Notes: generated by a model from the sequence alone, not told the origin. A DNA stretch of 64,000 nt from Candidatus Omnitrophota bacterium (GCA_023247705.1 JAHFFY010000001.1:33358-97357); one strand, 5' to 3'. Positions 5,943 to 60,983 are shown, counted from the stretch's first letter. Made by a program: numbers and translations.

Positions 5943-8030
5943 ATGGAATCTCCGATAAACGGTCTCTCCAAGATCATCAATAAATTTTCGATCATCAAGC
6001 AAATTCCGATTTTTAATAATCTCAATTGGTTTCAATTGCACATGATCAGCCAAAAAAGTGTTCTTCAGGAATACCATAAGGGAGATTTTATTTATAAAGA
6101 GGAAAGTCCTGCGGATGGTTTTTATTGTTTGATCTCGGGAAGATTGCAGGCGTATAACATGAAATCATCCGGGCGCAAAGACAACCTGGAGCTTATTCTC
6201 CGCGGAACTCATTTCGGAATTACCTCGCTTTTTACCGGAGAGAATCATTCTTTAACCGTTGAAGCGGTGAACGATTCGATCATCCTGAAGATTACGCGGG
6301 ATGATTTTTTGTTGCTCTTGAAGATGATTCCCAAACTGGCCATCGAACTCAACCGGAGCTTATCCCAGCGTGTCAGAAATAAAAAACTCAACGCCCAATC
6401 CATTTTTAACAGTTCGATTATTTCCGTTTACAGTCCTGTCAAGGGGACCGGCAGTTCCACGTACGCGCTGAATCTCGCGATTAACCTTGAACGCGAAACC
6501 AAACGAAAGGTTATTTTAGTCAATATTAGTTCCAATCTTTCGGATGAACAGTCGTTGATTTTCAAGGTCCCGGACGCCTCGCCTCATTGGAAGATCCCGG
6601 GGATCAGGATTCAGGAGACGGTGGGCGATCATCAGAAAATTATCCAGAGCGTGATTAAAGGGCATCTTAATGTCGATCTGTTGCATGTTGTTTTTAACCC
6701 TACGAACAAAAATTTAGTCGACCTGATCAGCCAGTTTGTCAGTGCGTTGATCAACGATTATTATTATCTCGTTGTTGATCTTCCCAATAATATGGATGAT
6801 GTTGTCTTGCAGACATTGACTCAATCGGACTTGATCCACTTGATCACTCTAAACCGGATGGAAGATCTGAAGCTCACAAATCAGGTGATTCATGATCTGC
6901 AAACAAAGTTAAAAGACCGTTTTATTAAGGAAAACGTTCAAGTCATGATCAGCAGTTTAGATCGTTCGGAAAACCGTTTAGTCCATCACGAGATCGATAA
7001 CGTTTTAGATTTTAAGGTCTCAGACGTATTACCGTTTATTCCCCCTGAGGATTTGAGAAATCCAGTGATCACGGATGCGATCGCTGTCATCACTCCGGGA
7101 CTTGATAGTGAATATACCAAGACCTTGGCCAGAATTTCGCGGAAAATCGGAGGGATTTTAATCGGCTTAGTCTTGGGCGGTGGGGCGGCTTTAGGATTAG
7201 CTCACATCGGCGTTATCAAGGTCCTGGAGCGGGAAAATATCCCCATTGATATTGTGGTGGGAAGCAGCATGGGTGCATTAATTGCCGCTCTCTGGACGAT
7301 TGGCAATAATTCCGAACATCTAGAAATATTTGCGCGGGAATTTGAGAAAAAACAGAATGGATTGAAATTATTCGATCCTGTTTTTCCAAGGACTGGCTTT
7401 ATCGGTGGACGCCTGATCAAATTGTGGTTGAAAAAGCATCTCGGAGATAAGACGTTTTATGATACAAAAGTCTCTTTGAAAATCGTCAGCTATGATCTGA
7501 TCAGACGAGAGGAACAAATTTTGGACCAAGGCAGTTTAGTCGATGCGGTTAGGGAAAGCGTTGCGATCCCGGGTGTTATCGAACCTGTCTTTCGTGGTGG
7601 AAAGATGATTATTGATGGAGGAGTTTTGAATCCTTTGCCGACCAATGTATTGACCACCCTTGGAATTAAAAAAATCATTGCGATCAATGTCCTGCAATCA
7701 CCGGCGGATGTTTCGAAAGGCTATGATCTTCATCAGGAAAAAGCGCAGCTAGAACATCAAATTCCGTTCATGAAATCGCCGTTAGTCTTTTTGGGTGTTC
7801 GGATCTCTAAAGTTTTCAGCGCCAATATCCCGGATATTATTATCCGGACTCTTCAAGCCTCTGAATATGTCATCGCTGAGCAAAGCGCCAACCAGGCCGA
7901 TGTGCTTATTCATCCGAATCTGGTCGGCATTAACTGGTTTGAATTGTATCAGGTCGATCAGCTAATTCAAAGCGGAGAAGACGCGACGTTGCAAAAAATT
8001 GGAGAAATTAAGAGATTGATCCGGGAATAA
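5943..8030 (+). CDS. Three-module protein: cyclic-nucleotide-binding domain + degenerate ParA/MinD-like domain + patatin-like phospholipase
   Basis: The N-terminus has a CAP-effector-type cNMP domain (GDFIYKEESPADGFYCLISGRLQ..RGTHFG). The middle carries a ParA/MinD-like layout with a deviant P-loop (ISVYSPVKGTGSST) and a Walker-B-like YLVVDLP. The C-terminus is patatin-like (GGGAALG, GSSMG nucleophile elbow, DGG Asp). Confidence 0.75.
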   Translation: MESPINGLSKIINKFSIIKQIPIFNNLNWFQLHMISQKSVLQEYHKGDFIYKEESPADGFYCLISGRLQAYNMKSSGRKDNLELILRGTHFGITSLFTGENHSLTVEAVNDSIILKITRDDFLLLLKMIPKLAIELNRSLSQRVRNKKLNAQSIFNSSIISVYSPVKGTGSSTYALNLAINLERETKRKVILVNISSNLSDEQSLIFKVPDASPHWKIPGIRIQETVGDHQKIIQSVIKGHLNVDLLHVVFNPTNKNLVDLISQFVSALINDYYYLVVDLPNNMDDVVLQTLTQSDLIHLITLNRMEDLKLTNQVIHDLQTKLKDRFIKENVQVMISSLDRSENRLVHHEIDNVLDFKVSDVLPFIPPEDLRNPVITDAIAVITPGLDSEYTKTLARISRKIGGILIGLVLGGGAALGLAHIGVIKVLERENIPIDIVVGSSMGALIAALWTIGNNSEHLEIFAREFEKKQNGLKLFDPVFPRTGFIGGRLIKLWLKKHLGDKTFYDTKVSLKIVSYDLIRREEQILDQGSLVDAVRESVAIPGVIEPVFRGGKMIIDGGVLNPLPTNVLTTLGIKKIIAINVLQSPADVSKGYDLHQEKAQLEHQIPFMKSPLVFLGVRISKVFSANIPDIIIRTLQASEYVIAEQSANQADVLIHPNLVGINWFELYQVDQLIQSGEDATLQKIGEIKRLIRE

Positions 8031-26929: not shown

Positions 26930-27619
26930 ATGCCGAAAATGCTGTTAGAAAATTTCCAGAAAATCCAAAATAGAATCATCGACTTTAAAAACAATAAAAA
27001 ATATCGTGCAATCTACGAAGAATTTAAAGACTACACGATAATTCCCAAAGAAACTTACATCGATAATTTAATCCTAGCCGATATTTACCGTAAAGTTGAT
27101 GGTGCAATCGTTGAATGTGGCGTTTGGCGAGGCGGAATGATTGCCGGGATTGCAAAATTGTTCTCGGATCAACGTGATTATTACTTGTTTGACAGTTTTG
27201 AAGGATTACCTCAAGCCAGGGACGTCGATGGGGAAGATACCATTCAGTGGCAGAAAGATCAAGACAATACGATGAAAGCAGAGATTGATTTTGCGCAAAA
27301 GGCTATGCGCTTATCCGGGACAAGAAATTATCATTTCATCAAAGGTTGGTTTAAAGACACTCTTCCAAAATTTAAGATGGATACTAAGATCGCCATCCTG
27401 AGATTAGATGGTGATTTATACGATTCAACCATGGACTGCCTCACGTATCTTTATCCTTTCTTGTCTGATGATGGGATCATCATTGTGGATGATTATTATT
27501 TCTGGGAAGGTTGTACAAAAGCAGTGCATGATTATTTATCAAAGCATCAACTGTGTTCCAGACTTAGACAGTTCGGTTGTTCTGTTTGCTATCTGATCAA
27601 AAAAGATAAGAAAATTTAA
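26930..27619 (+). CDS. TylF/MycF-family SAM-dependent O-methyltransferase
   Basis: CGVWRGG, DSFEGLP and LRLDGDLYDST motifs are present. Confidence 0.75.
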   Translation: MPKMLLENFQKIQNRIIDFKNNKKYRAIYEEFKDYTIIPKETYIDNLILADIYRKVDGAIVECGVWRGGMIAGIAKLFSDQRDYYLFDSFEGLPQARDVDGEDTIQWQKDQDNTMKAEIDFAQKAMRLSGTRNYHFIKGWFKDTLPKFKMDTKIAILRLDGDLYDSTMDCLTYLYPFLSDDGIIIVDDYYFWEGCTKAVHDYLSKHQLCSRLRQFGCSVCYLIKKDKKI

Positions 27620-27625
27620 TGTGAT

Positions 27626-28564
27626 ATGCCCAAAGTCAGCGTCATTGTTCCAACATTTAACCGTGCCAATCTCCTATCCGAGGCGATCCAGAGCGTATTG
27701 GATCAAACGTTTAAGGATTATGAGATCATTGTGGTTGACGTGGGATCAACGGATAACACACGGGAGATGATCGGACGATTTGGAGATCAAGTAAAATATT
27801 TCTATAAGGATCAATGTCCCGTATCAACTGCAAGAAATTTCGGGATGAAGAATTCGTGTGGGGAATATATTGCTTTTCTTGATGATGACGACTTATGGTA
27901 CAAGAACAAGCTTGCAGTTCAGGTGAAAGAACTGGATCAGAACCAGGAATTGGGTTTTTTATGTGCTGAAGCTGATGTCATGACCATGGATGGAAGAACA
28001 CTGTATACTTTGAGAAAAGGTTGGGGAAACAAGGAAAATTTTGAAAGTTTGTTTAATGAAAACTTTATTCCGATGTTAACGGTCTTGATGCGTCGAACAT
28101 GTTATGAGCAAATCGGCGGATTCGATGAAAATTTTATTAATTCCGAAGATTATGATTACTGGCTGAGATTAGCTCAAGTATATCAATTCAAGTATCTTGA
28201 CACCCCGTTGGCAAAATGGCGCGTGACCCCTAATAGTAAGAGTAAAAATATTGAGCGGATGTTTAAAGCGTATTGGAAAATTTTTACAAAAAAGAAGATT
28301 ATCAAGAATGTCCCATTTCGAAAGATCATTATTCGCCGTTCAAAATTCTGTTTGGAGTATGCTGACCTATATAAACAAAAAGGACAATTTTTGCAATCTG
28401 CCCAAGCGTATTTAAAGGCTGTTCTTGTCTTCCCGCTTATTGGGTTTTACATATGGCCGAAAGAAATACGACGGATACATTTTACGCTTTTTTATCGAAT
28501 TTTTAGGATTTATGGGCTGATGTTGTATAGTTTTCTTATGGCCATCAGGAATCCCAAGAATTGA
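27626..28564 (+). CDS. Family 2 glycosyltransferase (paralog A of tandem pair)
   Basis: VSVIVPTFNR, the VVDVGSTD variant of the DxGSTD-type motif, and an LDDDD DxD motif. Confidence 0.85.
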   Translation: MPKVSVIVPTFNRANLLSEAIQSVLDQTFKDYEIIVVDVGSTDNTREMIGRFGDQVKYFYKDQCPVSTARNFGMKNSCGEYIAFLDDDDLWYKNKLAVQVKELDQNQELGFLCAEADVMTMDGRTLYTLRKGWGNKENFESLFNENFIPMLTVLMRRTCYEQIGGFDENFINSEDYDYWLRLAQVYQFKYLDTPLAKWRVTPNSKSKNIERMFKAYWKIFTKKKIIKNVPFRKIIIRRSKFCLEYADLYKQKGQFLQSAQAYLKAVLVFPLIGFYIWPKEIRRIHFTLFYRIFRIYGLMLYSFLMAIRNPKN

Positions 28565-28582
28565 AATCCTAAGGGAAAGATT

Positions 28583-28729
28583 AGAACTTATCCCAAAATT
28601 TCTCATCAGGATTTTCGTGCGGGTGGCCCGGAGGCGGGTTCCCTGCCGCCCGCAGGTGATGAGGACGGCAGGGTGCCGCAGGGACAGAACCCGCAACAAA
28701 TTCACAGAAGCAATTTTGGGACAAGTTCT
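28583..28729. other. GC-rich structured element bounded by an 18-nt inverted repeat (MITE-like or structured RNA)
   Basis: AGAACTTATCCCAAAATT (28583-28600) pairs with AATTTTGGGACAAGTTCT (28712-28729) at 17 of 18 positions. The core 28616-28697 is about 70% GC and has nested stems GCGGGTTC/GAACCCGC and CCTGCCG/CGGCAGG. Confidence 0.5.
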
Positions 28730-28780
28730 AGACAGTTTGATCGCTCTGGTTGTTATTTGGTAGAAAGAATTAAATTTAAC

Positions 28781-29725
28781 GTGAAGATACCCAAAGTCAG
28801 CGTTATTATCCCGACTTATAATCGAGCCAATCTCCTATCCGAGGCGATCCAGAGCGTATTGGATCAAACGTTTAAGGATTATGAGATCATTGTGGTTGAC
28901 GTGGGATCAACTGATAACACGCGGGAGATGATCGGACGATTTGGAGATAAGATAAACTACATTTATCAAAAGCAATGTCCAGTCGCAACGACAAGAAATT
29001 TAGGAATGAAGAATTCATCTGGGGAATATATTGCCTTTCTTGATGATGATGACTTTTGGCACAAGAACAAACTTGAAATCCAGGTGAAAGAACTGGATCA
29101 GAACCAGGAATTGGGTTTTATCTGCTCTGAAGCTGATGTTGTGACCTTGGATGGAAAATTAATGTACACTTTAAAACGAGGGTGGGGAAACAAGGAAAAT
29201 TTTGAAAGCTTGTTTAACGAAAATTTTATTCCGGTGTTAACGGTCTTGATGCGCAGAAAATGCTATGAGCAAATCGGCGGATTTGATGAGAATCTTATTG
29301 CTGCCGAAGATTATGATTACTGGCTGAGATTAGCCCAGGTGTATCAATTCAAGTTTCTTGATGCCCCATTGGCGAAATGGCGCATGACTCCCAATAGTAC
29401 AAGCAAAAATATTCAGCAAATGTTCGAAGGACATTTGCAACTTTCTAGAAAAAAGAAAATTATTGCGAATGTCCCATATTTAAAAGTCATTATTCGACGT
29501 TCAAAGTTTTGTTTGGAATATGCTGAGCAATATAAACAAAAAAAGCAATTTTTGCAATCCGCCCAAGCTTACTTAAAAGCAGTTCTTGTTTTTCCAATGA
29601 TTGGTTTTTATATATGGCCCAAAGAAGTTAGAAAAATGCGTTTCACCTTGTTTCACCGAATTTTTAGAGTTTATGGCCTCATGTTGCAAAGTTTTTTTAT
29701 GGCCGTCAGGAATCCCCGCAAATGA
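28781..29725 (+). CDS. Family 2 glycosyltransferase (paralog B of tandem pair)
   Basis: It aligns with paralog A from VKIPKVSVIIPTYNR onward. The GTG 28781 start was chosen because homology to paralog A begins there. The track start at 28673 reads through the GC-rich spacer. Confidence 0.8.
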   Translation: MKIPKVSVIIPTYNRANLLSEAIQSVLDQTFKDYEIIVVDVGSTDNTREMIGRFGDKINYIYQKQCPVATTRNLGMKNSSGEYIAFLDDDDFWHKNKLEIQVKELDQNQELGFICSEADVVTLDGKLMYTLKRGWGNKENFESLFNENFIPVLTVLMRRKCYEQIGGFDENLIAAEDYDYWLRLAQVYQFKFLDAPLAKWRMTPNSTSKNIQQMFEGHLQLSRKKKIIANVPYLKVIIRRSKFCLEYAEQYKQKKQFLQSAQAYLKAVLVFPMIGFYIWPKEVRKMRFTLFHRIFRVYGLMLQSFFMAVRNPRK

Positions 29726-31011
29726 AAATTATAAAAAGATTTATACAAAATTTGATCAGAATATTTTTTATGCTATTGACATTGATCCGACAATGTTTGA
29801 GAAATAAGTCCGATATAAAGTTGGGTTTTCTTGTGGAAGAGTTCTTTCATGAAGATCTGAGAGGCTTTGGTGGTTTTGGAATGCTGGTTAAGTACATCAC
29901 GGATCATTTCAATCCCAAAAGAGGAATGTTTGGAGCAGATGTTTTATTAACTTTTCCGGTAGATTGCGATCAGCCACAAAAAAAAAGATATCATCACGCC
30001 AATGTGATTTTAAAACCTAAAGTTAATAAAAATTATGTTGCCAATTATTTGCGATATAGCAATCTGATCTTCCAAACACGCATCAATGCGTTTATCTCTA
30101 TTGATTATTATGGTTCATATGATTATCCATTATCAGTGTTTCCTCACATGCCTTTAATGATTTGGCATCAGGATCCGCGGGATGAACAAGAATGGGTGCA
30201 AATCATAACGGTTTCTTTAGAAGTGAAATTTTTAAGTAAATTTAAAACATTTGATTATAACCGTTTTATGAATAATCAGCGTACCTCAGTTGAAAAAATG
30301 CTTGATGACAGTAAAAGATTGAATCGAAAAATTTATTTTGTTAGTCAAGCAAATCAATTAAACGCAATGGCGGAACGATTATACGGCATTTCCAATACCA
30401 ACCCAACATTTTTGCCGAATCCGATTCAAAGCATTGGGGTTCAGCATCAGCATTTTTCTCAAAAGCCCTCTTTTCTTCTTTTGGGACGGTTAGATCCAAT
30501 CAAACGACCATGGATCTATTTTGAGTTGGCCAAACGGTTTAAGGAATATGATTTCTACGTGGCGGGTTCAACTCATTATCAGGAAGAGATGGATCGGGTT
30601 ATTGCCAACTATCAAAATATCCCTAATCTAAAATTTCTAGGAAGAATTATGAGCGAACAGAAGGATCAAATTTTGAATTCTATATGGGCGGTTATTAATA
30701 CCAGTATTCACGAGGCATTGCCCGTCTCTTTTTTAGAAGCTTTTGCCTATGGCAAACTGGTTATCAGCTGCCGTAATCCGGATAATTTAGTGAATCGGTT
30801 TGGTTTTTATACTGGAGAAATCTTAGGAGAGGGAACAGATCAGGTATCAATGGGAAAGTTTGAAACGGCTGTAAAAAAATTGGTATCAAAAGATTTTGAT
30901 AAAGAAACGAGGGGACTGGCTGCTCGTCAATATGTCCTGGAGACGCATACGTTTGAAAATTACGAGAAGATCGTTCGGGAAGTCCTAACGAATAAAAAAT
31001 CTTATCTCTAG
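29722..31011 (+). CDS. Family 1 (GT4-like) glycosyltransferase
   Basis: C-terminal GT-B half with LLGRLDP.KR and an E-x7-E motif (HEALPVSFLEAFAYG). ATGA overlaps the upstream stop. Confidence 0.65.
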   Translation: MKIIKRFIQNLIRIFFMLLTLIRQCLRNKSDIKLGFLVEEFFHEDLRGFGGFGMLVKYITDHFNPKRGMFGADVLLTFPVDCDQPQKKRYHHANVILKPKVNKNYVANYLRYSNLIFQTRINAFISIDYYGSYDYPLSVFPHMPLMIWHQDPRDEQEWVQIITVSLEVKFLSKFKTFDYNRFMNNQRTSVEKMLDDSKRLNRKIYFVSQANQLNAMAERLYGISNTNPTFLPNPIQSIGVQHQHFSQKPSFLLLGRLDPIKRPWIYFELAKRFKEYDFYVAGSTHYQEEMDRVIANYQNIPNLKFLGRIMSEQKDQILNSIWAVINTSIHEALPVSFLEAFAYGKLVISCRNPDNLVNRFGFYTGEILGEGTDQVSMGKFETAVKKLVSKDFDKETRGLAARQYVLETHTFENYEKIVREVLTNKKSYL

Positions 31012-59833: not shown

Positions 59834-60412
59834 TTATCTTTCTAGGACGTAGGCTTTTATGATTTTTTGCTCTTGCTGGGGACGATTGGATGGGCCAACA
59901 GGAGAATTCGAAATCTTCTCAACCACATCAAAACCGTTGGTGATTTCACCAAAAATCGTGTGAATGCCATTCAGCCAAGGGGTTGGAGCAACGGTAATAA
60001 AAAATTGACTCCCGTTAGTGTTCGGACCGGAATTGGCCATGGCCAGAAGTCCTTTGCGATCGAATTTAATCATTGGATTAATTTCATCTTCAAATTTCCC
60101 GCCCCATATACTTTTCCCATAGCGTCCGATTCCAGTGGGATCTCCACCTTGAATCATAAAATTTTTTTTCACACGATAGAATATGGTTCCATCATAATAA
60201 TTTTTATCGACCAGGCCAATCATGTTTTCGCAGGCCTTCGGTGCGATATCAGGAAATAATTTTACTTCAAAAGGACCTTGGTTGGTCTCAAAGATGATGA
60301 GTGGATTTTTCTTCAGCGATGGCTGCAGATTGTTTTCTTGCGCTCGTAACGAATTTCCGATAACACAAACGGAAAAACATATCGCAAGAATCATTAAAGA
60401 TTTCTTTATCAT
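59834..60412 (-). CDS. Secreted cyclophilin-type peptidyl-prolyl isomerase
   Basis: Signal peptide, then cyclophilin blocks FYRV...FMIQGGDP, LAMANSGPNTNGSQFFIT and HTIFG. ATG 60412 avoids a 40-nt overlap with the upstream paralog. Confidence 0.85.
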   Translation of the reverse strand: MIKKSLMILAICFSVCVIGNSLRAQENNLQPSLKKNPLIIFETNQGPFEVKLFPDIAPKACENMIGLVDKNYYDGTIFYRVKKNFMIQGGDPTGIGRYGKSIWGGKFEDEINPMIKFDRKGLLAMANSGPNTNGSQFFITVAPTPWLNGIHTIFGEITNGFDVVEKISNSPVGPSNRPQQEQKIIKAYVLER

Positions 60413-60425
60413 ATCAGATCTCGAC

Positions 60426-60983
60426 TCATTCTTGCTTGATATATGCTCTGATGATCTTTTGATCATCTACTGGACGTTCTTGAGCATCTGTCGGGACTTT
60501 ATTGATTTTGTCAACGACATCATATCCTTTGATCACTTCTCCGAACAAGGTGTATTGCATGTCATTTCGGGGGGCCGGAACGGTTGTAATAAAAAATTGA
60601 CTTGTATTTGTATCAGGTCCTGCATTTGCCATGCCAACAAGCCCTTTTCGATCAAATTTCACGAAAGGATTAACCTCATTTTCGAACGGTTTTCCCCAAA
60701 TGCTCTTGCCTCCTGCTCCCGTTGCCGTTGGATCTCCTGTTTGAATGACCCAGTCTTTGACAACACGATGGAAAATAAGACCATCATAAAATTTTTTTTT
60801 TATTAAGCCGATCAAATTTTCGCAGGCTTTGGGAGCAATGTCCGGAAAAAGTTTAATTTCAATATTCCCTTGGGTTGTTTCAAAAACAACTACGGGGCCT
60901 GAAGCATTTTGCGCCTTCGGTGCGCTACAGGAAGTGAAAGGTAAGACAGCAAAGAAAATGAGTATTAAAAACCGGTTTAACAT
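60426..60983 (-). CDS. Secreted (possibly lipoprotein) cyclophilin-type peptidyl-prolyl isomerase
   Basis: Signal peptide ending FTSC, then FHRVVKDWVIQTGDP, GMANAGPDTNTSQFFIT and YTLFG. It is a tandem paralog of the downstream gene. Confidence 0.85.
   Translation of the reverse strand: MLNRFLILIFFAVLPFTSCSAPKAQNASGPVVVFETTQGNIEIKLFPDIAPKACENLIGLIKKKFYDGLIFHRVVKDWVIQTGDPTATGAGGKSIWGKPFENEVNPFVKFDRKGLVGMANAGPDTNTSQFFITTVPAPRNDMQYTLFGEVIKGYDVVDKINKVPTDAQERPVDDQKIIRAYIKQE

What the first reader, a model, noticed from the sequence alone, without database searches (positions are those of the whole stretch)
28583..28729. GC-rich, inverted-repeat-bounded structured element exactly at the duplication junction
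The ~200-nt spacer between the two GT2 copies is unrelated to either copy. It contains an ~80-nt core (28616-28697) of about 70% GC in a genome of about 40% GC. The core sits between 18-nt inverted repeats (28583-28600 and 28712-28729, 17/18 complementary). It can form nested helices: GCGGGTTC 28634-28641 with GAACCCGC 28687-28694, and CCTGCCG 28642-28648 with CGGCAGG 28666-28672. The direct repeat CCGCAGG in a loop and a bulge allows alternative or pseudoknotted pairings. There is no credible ORF and no T-tract. Candidates are a MITE-like insertion that mediated or marks the duplication, a cis-regulatory RNA (riboswitch-like) controlling the downstream GT2, or a small ncRNA. I could not match it to a known class by eye.
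Basis: seen in the sequence. Interest (0 to 1): 0.55.

Follow-up and report, generated by a model that had tools for sequence, protein, structure and literature searches.

The report
Mobile GC-rich hairpin repeat of Omnitrophota
The GC-rich spacer between two glycosyltransferase paralogues is one copy of an undescribed small non-coding hairpin element that has inserted between unrelated genes in Omnitrophota genomes; it arrived after the gene duplication and is not a riboswitch.

Summary
A 149-nt unit (28582-28730) has 17-nt terminal inverted repeats (16/17), a TA on each side and a 76-nt core of 76% GC. It folds end to end (-69.7 kcal/mol, z -6.3).

It is a repeat, not unique spacer. Copies 98-99% identical lie at two unrelated loci of an Omnitrophota MAG, and homology stops at the inverted repeats. 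About 20 further copies in Omnitrophota MAGs and metagenomes share only the core. The core is an asymmetric rod hairpin supported by covariation: 12 of 24 pairs have compensatory changes, plus a G.A/A.G swap and strand-specific G-U pairs.

Neighbouring genes are unrelated housekeeping genes, in either orientation. Orthologous sucC-sucD and leuB-asd junctions in relatives lack the element, so it is an insertion.

Rfam, plasmid, phage and literature searches found nothing.

The element copies are 99% alike and the GT2 paralogues 85%, so the insertion probably postdates the duplication. It occupies the only non-coding gap in a tightly packed operon, at a TA inside the junction.

I read it as a new MITE/REPIN-like family with a selected structured core. 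The riboswitch and duplication-mediator readings are rejected. An RNA-level role for the core remains open.

The parts
28582..28583 (.). Left TA flank (putative target-site duplication)
   Evidence: TA|GAACTT...AAGTTC|TA in the window and in L008, and on the left side of L006.
28584..28600 (+). Left terminal inverted repeat, GAACTTATCCCAAAATT
   Evidence: It is identical in L006 and L008. Homology between copies stops 2-3 nt outside it.
28601..28618 (+). Left AT-rich arm (lower stem of the long hairpin)
   Evidence: It pairs with 28695-28711 in the MFE folds. It is 65-74% identical to the arms of L007 and L012.
28619..28694 (+). Conserved GC-rich core. P1 is 28619-23 with 28690-94. UG 28624-25 pairs with CA 28685-86. 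The 3' bulge GAA is 28687-89. The purine-purine pair is G28626.A28684. P2 is 28627-29 with 28681-83. The 3x3 loop is GGA 28630-32 / GCA 28678-80. P2b is 28633-36 with 28674-77. The 5' bulge GGTT is 28637-40. P3 is 28641-48 with 28666-73, extended by 28650-51 with 28663-64 and 28653 with 28661. The variable apical loop is 28654-60.
   Evidence: Covariance model hit 28615-28699 (+), 101.5 bits, against 29.5 bits on the reverse strand. Alignments A4 and A5, RNAalifold and pair counts. Coordinates checked.
28695..28711 (+). Right AT-rich arm
28712..28728 (+). Right terminal inverted repeat, AATTTTGGGACAAGTTC
28729..28730 (.). Right TA flank. It is native sequence: TAGACAGTT is also present upstream of copy 1 at about 27565.
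   Evidence: Alignment A1.
27565..28581 (+). Duplicated unit, copy 1. It holds the last ~60 nt of the TylF-type methyltransferase gene, the GT2 CDS 27626-28564, and a ~17-nt decayed remnant of the start of the next gene.
28729..29743 (+). Duplicated unit, copy 2. It holds a non-coding remnant of the methyltransferase 3' end (28729-28780) and a GT2 CDS, most likely 28781 (GTG) to 29725.
   Evidence: The ancestral ATG position is ATA at 28787.
28673..28780 (+). Spurious 5' extension of the GT2 copy-2 ORF. It starts at a GTG inside the element and corresponds to the 350-aa database protein P0002.
   Evidence: Its first 36-38 residues have no counterpart in P0001, P0003, P0004 or P0012.

Best explanation
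The feature is one copy of an undescribed family of small, non-coding, hairpin-forming insertion elements found in Candidatus Omnitrophota. I class it as MITE/REPIN-like.

Anatomy of the family: a conserved, asymmetric, GC-rich rod hairpin of about 76-85 nt (the core), usually extended by lineage-specific AT-rich arms.

Anatomy in this genome: the unit is 145 nt with 17-nt terminal inverted repeats and is flanked by a duplicated TA.

Shown:
- The same unit occurs 98-99% identical at unrelated loci.
- Family members lie between unrelated genes in either orientation.
- Orthologous junctions in relatives are empty.

History at this locus: the element inserted at the TA of a TTAG inside the duplication junction. 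That junction was a 67-nt stretch, and it is the only non-coding gap in a tightly packed one-strand polysaccharide operon. The insertion probably came long after the tandem GT2 duplication, so it marks the junction and did not create it.

Inferred:
- It is moved in trans by a transposase encoded elsewhere. The TA flanks and TIRs of the window subfamily point to an IS630/Tc1-mariner-like or Correia-like mechanism.
- The conserved asymmetric core is kept because its folded single strand (DNA or RNA) is what the mobilising or a host protein recognises, as with REP/REPIN hairpins.
- At this locus it is co-transcribed with the operon as a -70 kcal/mol hairpin without a terminator T-tract. At most it acts as a generic processing or stability hairpin between the two GT2 cistrons.
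For: Repeat nature:
- L008 623-773 is 99.3% identical over 151 nt. L006 is 98.4% identical up to its contig end. Homology ends at the TIRs.
- TA flanks are present on the two complete copies. The reconstructed empty site GGGAAAGAT-TA-GACAGTT continues the homology with the region upstream of copy 1.

Family:
- 8 genome hits, all in Omnitrophota MAGs, and about 12 metagenome hits.
- Members score 75-103 bits on one strand and 14-29 bits on the other.
- A diverged copy, L009 6108-6192(-), scores 42 bits (67 bits with model R2) and carries many compensatory changes.

Structure:
- 98.7% of cells are paired.
- 12 of 24 pairs have changes on both sides.
- Covariation score is 0.202, against 0.067 when shuffled (0 of 500 shuffles reach it) and at most 0.059 when slid. 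The independent MAFFT alignment agrees.
- Columns 13/81 are G.A in 8 sequences and A.G in 9.
- L037 has matching 1-nt deletions on both strands of P2.

Insertion:
- sucC and sucD are 1 nt apart in relatives with 88-95% SucD identity. They are about 100 nt apart, with the element between them, in L010.
- The leuB-asd spacer holds the element only in L026.
- The model finds 0 copies in 193 kb of related Omnitrophota loci and 0 in 500 kb of viral loci.

Not gene-specific: the neighbours are unrelated.

Age: element copies are about 99% identical, against 84-87% for the GT2 units.
Against: - No transposase with matching ends was found.
- A TA duplication is clear only for the window subfamily, with 2 complete copies and 1 partial. 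L010 is flanked by AGAAA...AGAAA, and most core-only copies show no consistent duplication.
- In ordinary MITEs the TIRs are the conserved part. Here the interior is conserved (88-89%) and the arms drift (54-74%). That fits an RNA-level or single-strand-level function better than a classical cut-and-paste MITE.
- Part of the core conservation is ascertainment, because members were found with exact 20-23-nt core patterns.
- Copy number appears low, unlike REP/REPIN populations.
- No independent assembly spans the element at this locus. ENA and Logan contigs stop at 27805/28771 and 27750/29304.
Confidence: 0.6

Rival explanations
1. The conserved core is a functional structured RNA. It could be a protein-binding or processing/stability module, or a small RNA. 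The host would maintain it, and the inverted-repeat arms would be only the vehicle that spreads it. At this locus it would act in the operon mRNA between the two GT2 cistrons.
For: - There is strong covariation, a G.A/A.G isosteric swap, strand-specific G-U pairs and conserved asymmetric bulges.
- The core is more conserved than the arms.
- The core is also more conserved than expected from host divergence. Cores are about 88% identical between hosts whose SucD proteins are 78% identical.
- In about two thirds of cases the element lies 14-73 nt after the stop of a same-strand gene.
- L009 carries two very different copies that keep the same fold.
Against: - Five or six of 21 copies are antisense or divergent to their neighbours. 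L009b and L014 start 12-14 nt from a divergent gene's start codon.
- No promoter-like site is present, and the flanks are not conserved.
- Orthologous sites in close relatives are empty, so the element is dispensable there.
- There is no Rfam match even at E<=10.
- Ascertainment inflates the apparent conservation.
Confidence: 0.27
2. The element, or recombination between copies of it, generated the tandem GT2 duplication.
For: The element lies within about 3 nt of the reconstructed junction.
Against: - There is only one copy in 64 kb, and none at the outer ends of the units (27565, about 29743).
- Element copies are about 99% identical, while the units are 84-87% identical.
- The junction shows its own short microhomology: AGATT(T)A in the start of the next gene and AGACTTA in the methyltransferase 3' end.
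- Without the element the spacer is 67 nt and contains a single TTAG, so landing at the junction needs little luck.
Confidence: 0.05
3. It is a riboswitch or leader RNA controlling the downstream GT2 gene.
For: It is a structured GC-rich RNA 82 nt upstream of the likely GTG start, on the sense strand.
Against: - Downstream and upstream genes across the family are unrelated, and orientation varies.
- There is no terminator or anti-terminator arrangement and no T-tract.
- The structure does not occlude the start region, because the hairpin ends 50 nt before the start.
- There is no Rfam match.
Confidence: 0.02
4. It is an assembly artefact: a chimeric join of two contigs, or of two related genomes, through a shared repeat. 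That would create a false tandem duplication.
For: - Independent ENA and Logan assemblies of the same organism break inside this region, and none spans the element.
- The element is a multi-copy repeat longer than k=141.
Against: - The breaks (27805, 28771, 27750, 29304) are not at the element boundaries.
- The sequence after the copy-1 stop is a decayed remnant of the next gene's start: TTG AAA TCC TAA against ATG AAA ATT ATA.
- The sequence before copy 2 is a decayed remnant of the methyltransferase 3' end. This is what an old real duplication leaves.
- A chimera would need the element to have interrupted two different genes in two genomes.
Confidence: 0.04

Closest known systems
Correia elements (CREE/NEMIS) of Neisseria and similar bacterial MITEs (from my own knowledge)
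   Same: - About 100-155 nt, non-coding, with terminal inverted repeats.
- Insertion at TA with TA duplication.
- Intergenic, often inside operons, and co-transcribed as a long hairpin.
- Present or absent at orthologous sites.
   Different: - Correia elements occur in hundreds of copies and have conserved 26-bp TIRs. No covarying structured interior has been reported for them.
- Here copy density is low.
- The interior is the conserved, covarying part.
- Some copies (L010, L026) consist of the core only.
REP / REPIN elements mobilised by RAYT transposases (from my own knowledge)
   Same: - Two conserved, inversely oriented halves form an imperfect hairpin with a variable loop.
- They lie in intergenic 3' regions.
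- Structure is kept by compensatory change.
- They are long-lived within a lineage and are probably recognised as folded single strands.
   Different: - No GTAG/CTAC motif.
- No RAYT gene was seen in about 0.5 Mb of Omnitrophota loci, although those loci were not scanned systematically for one.
- Copy number looks far lower.
- The window subfamily has true TIRs and TA flanks, which REPINs lack.
IS630/Tc1-mariner-derived MITEs (from my own knowledge)
   Same: - TA target duplication within an NTAN-like site (TTAG here).
- Short TIRs and small size.
   Different: - No cognate IS630-type transposase or matching TIR was found.
- The TIRs are not conserved across the family.
Rfam structured RNA families, including the weak C/D-box sRNA hits
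   Same: It is a GC-rich rod-like hairpin with internal loops. GUGAUGA in the window copy resembles a C box.
   Different: - The best hits score 12 bits against gathering scores of 45-50.
- The 'C box' lies in the apical loop, which varies in relatives, and there is no D box.
- No family reaches threshold in the window or in L009.

Membership tests
Bacterial MITE (TA-duplicating, IS630/Correia-like) | Terminal inverted repeats at both ends | tested here: met
   17-nt TIRs, 16/17 complementary, 28584-28600 and 28712-28728. The same TIRs occur in L008 and L006. Other subfamilies have different or no clear TIRs.
Bacterial MITE (TA-duplicating, IS630/Correia-like) | Target-site duplication (TA) | tested here: inconclusive
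   TA is present on both sides in the window and L008, on the left in L006, and possibly in L026. It is absent or inconsistent in L010 and other core-only copies.
Bacterial MITE (TA-duplicating, IS630/Correia-like) | Small, with no coding capacity | tested here: met
   The unit is 145-149 nt. Loop length varies by non-multiples of 3, and there are indels across the family. The only ORFs are chance ones.
Bacterial MITE (TA-duplicating, IS630/Correia-like) | Several near-identical copies at unrelated loci, and empty orthologous sites | tested here: met
   L006 and L008 are 98-99% identical. The sucC-sucD and leuB-asd sites are empty in relatives. No relative was available to test the window's own site.
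Bacterial MITE (TA-duplicating, IS630/Correia-like) | Autonomous partner element with the same TIRs | not testable with these tools
   The genome and metagenome scans were exhausted. No further TIR match occurs in about 1 Mb of fetched loci, apart from a chance match inside a T2SSE gene.
REP/REPIN-RAYT | Conserved GTAG/CTAC next to the REP hairpin | tested here: not met
   No conserved GTAG or CTAC in alignments A4 and A5.
REP/REPIN-RAYT | Tens to hundreds of copies per genome | tested here: inconclusive
   There is 1 copy in the 64-kb window, 0 in 193 kb of related loci, and 2-3 exact-pattern hits per MAG. Whole genomes could not be scanned.
REP/REPIN-RAYT | Associated Y1 (RAYT) transposase gene | not tested
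   Only the immediate neighbours were annotated. None is a Y1 transposase. L008 has an IS982-type DDE fragment.
Riboswitch / cis-regulatory leader | Consistent position in the 5' UTR of one functional gene class, in sense orientation | tested here: not met
   The neighbours are unrelated and the orientations mixed.
Any Rfam 15 family | Score at or above the family gathering threshold | tested here: not met
   There are 0 hits at gathering threshold in the window. At E<=10 there are only 12-bit snoRNA noise hits. Nothing matches at either L009 copy.
Intrinsic terminator | GC-rich stem followed directly by a T-tract | tested here: not met
   No terminator-like site in 28300-29000. The 3' flanks across the family lack a common T-run.
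Integron attC site | R''/R' core sites (RYYYAAC ... GTTRRRY) and an array of cassettes | tested here: not met
   The ends read TTAGAAC...GTTCTAG, which do not fit the core-site consensus as I recall it. There is a single copy in the window and no cassette array.

The most novel reading that the evidence does not exclude
The 76-85-nt GC-rich core is a new, Omnitrophota-wide class of structured nucleic acid with its own function. It could be a protein-recruiting RNA or a single-strand DNA recognition module of an uncharacterised mobilisation system. Its conserved asymmetric bulges and G.A/A.G pair would be the functional surface, and the inverted-repeat arms would be dispensable packaging.
Probability: 0.25. 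Interest if true: 0.65.

Novelty: new member of a known kind. Interest (0 to 1): 0.4.

Why it matters
- It explains an odd GC island and corrects an annotation. The 350-aa GT2 call starts inside the element.
- It shows that the 'element at a duplication junction' is a later tenant of the only free spacer, not the cause of the duplication.
- It gives a calibrated covariance model for a repeat family in a poorly known, uncultivated phylum. The model can be used to mask repeats, to explain contig breaks, and to look for the enzyme that moves the element.
- If the conserved core proves to have its own RNA-level or single-strand-level function, it would be a new structured motif restricted to Omnitrophota.

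Tried and rejected
- Rfam, at gathering threshold over the whole window and at E<=10 on 28500-28850 and on L009 4300-6300: nothing beyond noise.
- tRNA/tmRNA scan: none.
- Promoter and terminator scan: none.
- Other copies in the window: none, by pattern search, BLAST-short and both covariance models.
- Viral contigs: three pattern scans plus the covariance model found no member.
- Plasmid and phage BLAST: no match.
- Literature: no Omnitrophota RNA motif or repeat is described, and the core sequence gives no text hit.
- Recovering an independent contig across the junction: exact look-ups of the GT2 copy-1 product and of two guessed partial products failed.
- Empty site for the window's own locus: the nearest GT2 homologues are only 55-56% identical.
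- Pseudoknot GCGGG (28635-39) with CCCGC (28650-54): rejected. L034 changes both sides without compensation, and L009b does not keep it.
- C/D-box sRNA: rejected (and the family alignment).
- TIR-like match at L008:2805: it lies inside a T2SSE ATPase gene and is a chance match.
- Tandem 45-nt hairpin array in L027/L030 sharing GGGTTCCCTGCCG...CGGTAGGGTG: only 30 bits, a different architecture, and not a member.

Full report
**What is at the coordinates**

- TAGAACTTATCCCAAAAT lies at 28582-28599 and its reverse complement, with one mismatch, at 28713-28730. BLAST extends this to 19 nt, 18/19.
- The 80-nt window 28616-28695 is 75% GC. It is the highest in a 64-kb window that averages 40% (sd 7%). 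The core 28619-28694 is 76% GC.
- The 149-nt unit 28582-28730 folds end to end into one imperfect hairpin. As RNA it gives -69.7 kcal/mol, z = -6.3. As DNA it gives -40.6 kcal/mol, z = -6.9. No shuffle does as well.
- There is no sigma-70-like promoter, no stem-plus-T-tract terminator and no tRNA.
- Rfam 15 finds nothing at gathering scores in the whole window. At E<=10 it gives only two 12-bit snoRNA hits.

**The duplication**

- Two GT2 genes (Pfam PF00535) are tandem paralogues. The stretch 27565-28564 matches 28729-29725 at 84-87% nucleotide identity and 79-80% amino-acid identity.
- The unit starts about 60 nt inside the 3' end of the upstream TylF-type methyltransferase gene. So 28731-28780, just right of the element, is a decayed copy of that gene's end and not foreign DNA.
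- The 17 nt after the copy-1 stop codon (TTGAAATCCTAAGGGAAAGAT) resemble the start of the gene that follows copy 2 (ATGAAAATTATAAAAAGATT).
- Removing the element and one TA gives ...GGGAAAGAT-TA-GACAGTT.... Here the left-hand homology (start of the next gene) meets the right-hand homology (methyltransferase 3' end) at a short shared AGAYTTA-like string.
- The element is therefore within about 3 nt of the junction.

**It is a repeat**

- One genome-collection scan with a 20-nt core string returned 20 loci.
- Twelve were high-GC genomes matching only the 20-mer. Eight were Candidatus Omnitrophota MAGs with extended homology.
- In MAG nzgw313, L008 623-773 is 99.3% identical over 151 nt. L006 is 98.4% identical up to its contig end.
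- Similarity stops exactly outside the inverted repeats, and the flanks are unrelated. L008 lies after an IS982-type transposase fragment and L006 after gyrB-gyrA-tRNA.
- Both complete copies read TA|GAACTT...AAGTTC|TA.
- In the window, the right-hand TA belongs to sequence also present upstream of copy 1. That is what a TA target duplication would leave.

**The wider family shares only the core**

- Other Omnitrophota copies (L007, L009, L010, L012, L014, L023) share a stretch of about 76-85 nt.
- So do twelve loci from one metagenome scan (L026, L028, L029, L031, L032/L042, L033, L034, L036-L039, L041).
- That stretch reads YGGGUGRCCCGGAGGCGGGUUCCCUGCCGCCCGCA-loop-GAGGACGGYAGGGUGCCGCAGGGRCAGGACCCR.
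- Their flanks differ.
  - Some have arms homologous to the window's but decayed. For L007 and L012 the arms are 54-74% identical and the core 88-89%.
  - Some have different long inverted repeats (L031, L039, L038).
  - Some have only the core (L010, L026).

**Structure**

RNAalifold and my own pair list give a rod with these parts:
- P1.
- A 3-nt 3' bulge.
- UG/CA.
- A purine-purine pair.
- P2 (CCC/GGG).
- A 3x3 loop (GGA/GCA).
- GGCG/UGCC.
- A 4-nt 5' bulge (GGUU).
- P3 (8 bp plus an extension).
- A variable loop.

Evidence from the independent MAFFT alignment:
- 93% of cells pair.
- The covariation score is 0.146, against 0.061 for shuffles (0 of 500 reach it) and at most 0.062 for slid registers.

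Evidence from the model-fitted alignment that includes a diverged copy:
- 98.7% of cells pair.
- 12 of 24 pairs show changes on both sides.

Further points:
- P2 column 15/79 shows C-G, A-U and U-A.
- L037 has matching 1-nt deletions on both strands.
- Columns 13/81 are G.A in 8 sequences and A.G in 9.
- G-U pairs (23/70 in all sequences, 32/65 in 7 of 17), together with model scores of 75-103 bits on one strand against 14-29 bits on the other, show that one strand is the selected one.
- L009 holds a second copy (6108-6192, minus strand) that keeps the fold with many compensatory substitutions.

Two cautions apply.
- P3 and the GGUU bulge were part of my search strings, so their invariance is partly ascertainment. 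P1, P2, the 3' bulge and the purine pair were not part of those strings.
- Compensatory change in a palindrome can also arise at DNA level. The conserved asymmetry argues against simple arm-to-arm copying.

**Context**

- The neighbours are unrelated housekeeping genes: GT2, sucC/sucD, leuB/asd, folE, ilvN, a PP-loop ATPase, and by eye proB, uvrD, rmuC, apt, a LacI-type regulator, SOD and gyrA.
- About two thirds of copies lie 14-73 nt after the stop of a same-strand gene.
- Five or six copies are antisense or divergent to their neighbours. Two of these start 12-14 nt from a divergent gene's start codon.
- This rules out a gene-specific leader or riboswitch. It fits an element tolerated wherever there is non-coding room.

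**Empty sites**

- In relatives whose SucD is 88-95% identical to L010's, sucC and sucD are 1 nt apart. In L010 about 100 nt (core plus P1) sits between them, and SucC now ends at the UGA inside the conserved GGGUGAC.
- The leuB-asd spacer holds the element only in L026. A relative with 92% LeuB identity has a different 70-nt palindrome there, and another relative has a long AT-rich inverted repeat.
- The second model finds no copy in 193 kb of these related loci and none in 500 kb of viral loci.
- Plasmid and phage collections have no match.

**Order of events at this locus**

- Element copies are about 99% alike, whereas the GT2 units are about 85% alike.
- There is one copy in the window and none at the outer ends of the units.
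- Genes in this cluster overlap or are a few nt apart. The 67-nt junction spacer is the only place an insertion would not break a gene, and it has a single TTAG.
- The simplest reading is an old duplication with its own microhomology junction, later colonised by the element.
- A chimeric assembly is unlikely because the remnants on both sides are decayed pseudo-ends.
- However, no independent contig spans the element. ENA and Logan contigs stop at 27805/28771 and 27750/29304, and look-ups for a bridging contig failed.

**Mechanism**

Shown: it is a dispersed, strand-asymmetric, structurally constrained insertion.

Inferred:
- It is mobilised in trans. For the window subfamily, TA plus TIRs suggest an IS630/Correia-like route.
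- The core is kept because its folded single strand is the recognised object, as in REP/REPIN systems.
- At this locus the effect is that of a stable, non-terminating hairpin in the operon transcript.

The main rival is that the core is a host-maintained RNA module, and I cannot exclude it. In favour of the rival, the interior is more conserved than the ends. The antisense copies, the empty orthologous sites and the lack of promoters count against it.

**Comparison and novelty**

- The closest known kinds are Correia-type MITEs and REP/REPIN hairpins.
- It fails the REP GTAG test and shows no RAYT gene.
- It meets the MITE tests for this subfamily, except for the unknown autonomous partner.
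- I found no description in Rfam or in the searchable literature.
- I rate it a new member of a known kind, of moderate interest.

**By-product**

The database protein P0002 (350 aa) starts at GTG 28673 inside the element. Its first 36-38 residues match no homologue, and the likely start is GTG 28781.

Noticed in passing
window 28673-29725: The public protein call for GT2 copy 2 (P0002, 350 aa) starts at a GTG inside the element. Its 36-38-residue N-terminal extension has no counterpart in homologues. The ancestral ATG is ATA at 28787, and the likely start is GTG 28781.
   Followed up: yes
L010 2893-2998 (minus strand): The element sits between sucC and sucD, which are 1 nt apart in relatives. 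SucC now terminates at the UGA inside the element's conserved GGGUGAC, so the insertion replaced the gene's stop codon.
   Followed up: yes
L112 3719-3804 and L113 4378-4533: The orthologous leuB-asd spacer carries a different palindromic element in each relative. One is a 70-nt GGTGAAAGGTGAATGG... inverted repeat, and the other a long AT-rich inverted repeat. Omnitrophota spacers seem to host several unrelated hairpin families.
   Followed up: partly
L009 4399-4485 (+) and 6108-6192 (-): Two very different family members lie 1.6 kb apart in inverted orientation. They flank a tRNA gene and a PP-loop ATPase gene. The first follows a canonical terminator after a Cu/Zn SOD gene.
   Followed up: partly
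L027 821-961 and L030 (same sequence): A tandem array of three 45-nt hairpin units (AGAGCCGGGTTCCCTGCCGTGCTCGCTCTTAGCGCGGTAGGGTGG) lies in a 59% GC soil contig. The units share the GGGTTCCCTGCCG...CGGTAGGGTG hairpin with P3 of the element. There are no spacers, so it is not CRISPR-like, and there is no clear ORF or Rfam hit nearby.
   Followed up: partly
L012 1320-1345: One family member carries an extra hairpin (CCCGCGATTTTGCGGG) inserted at the position of the 3' bulge of the core. The rest of the structure is intact.
   Followed up: no
L008 179-595: An IS982-type DDE transposase fragment (PF13612) ends 29 nt before the left TA of the element copy (62 nt before its core). Its ends show no similarity to the element's TIRs.
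   Followed up: partly
window 27750-29304; L001-L004: Independent ENA (k141) and Logan assemblies of the same organism break at 27805/28771 and 27750/29304. These breaks fall inside the paralogous GT2 region and not at the element boundaries. The cause is unknown; low coverage or population variation are possible.
   Followed up: partly
window 15649-58402: About 40 consecutive genes lie on the + strand. They include Wzz, an ABC transporter with Wzt_C, many GT1/GT2/GT4 genes and Wzy_C, which makes this a very long one-strand polysaccharide gene cluster with almost no intergenic space.
   Followed up: no
window 59979-60094 and 60571-60686: A second direct repeat pair in the window: 116 nt, 71% identical, 592 nt apart, with identical ATCATAAAATTTTTTTT strings at 60153 and 60783. 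It lies in the minus-strand gene block.
   Followed up: no
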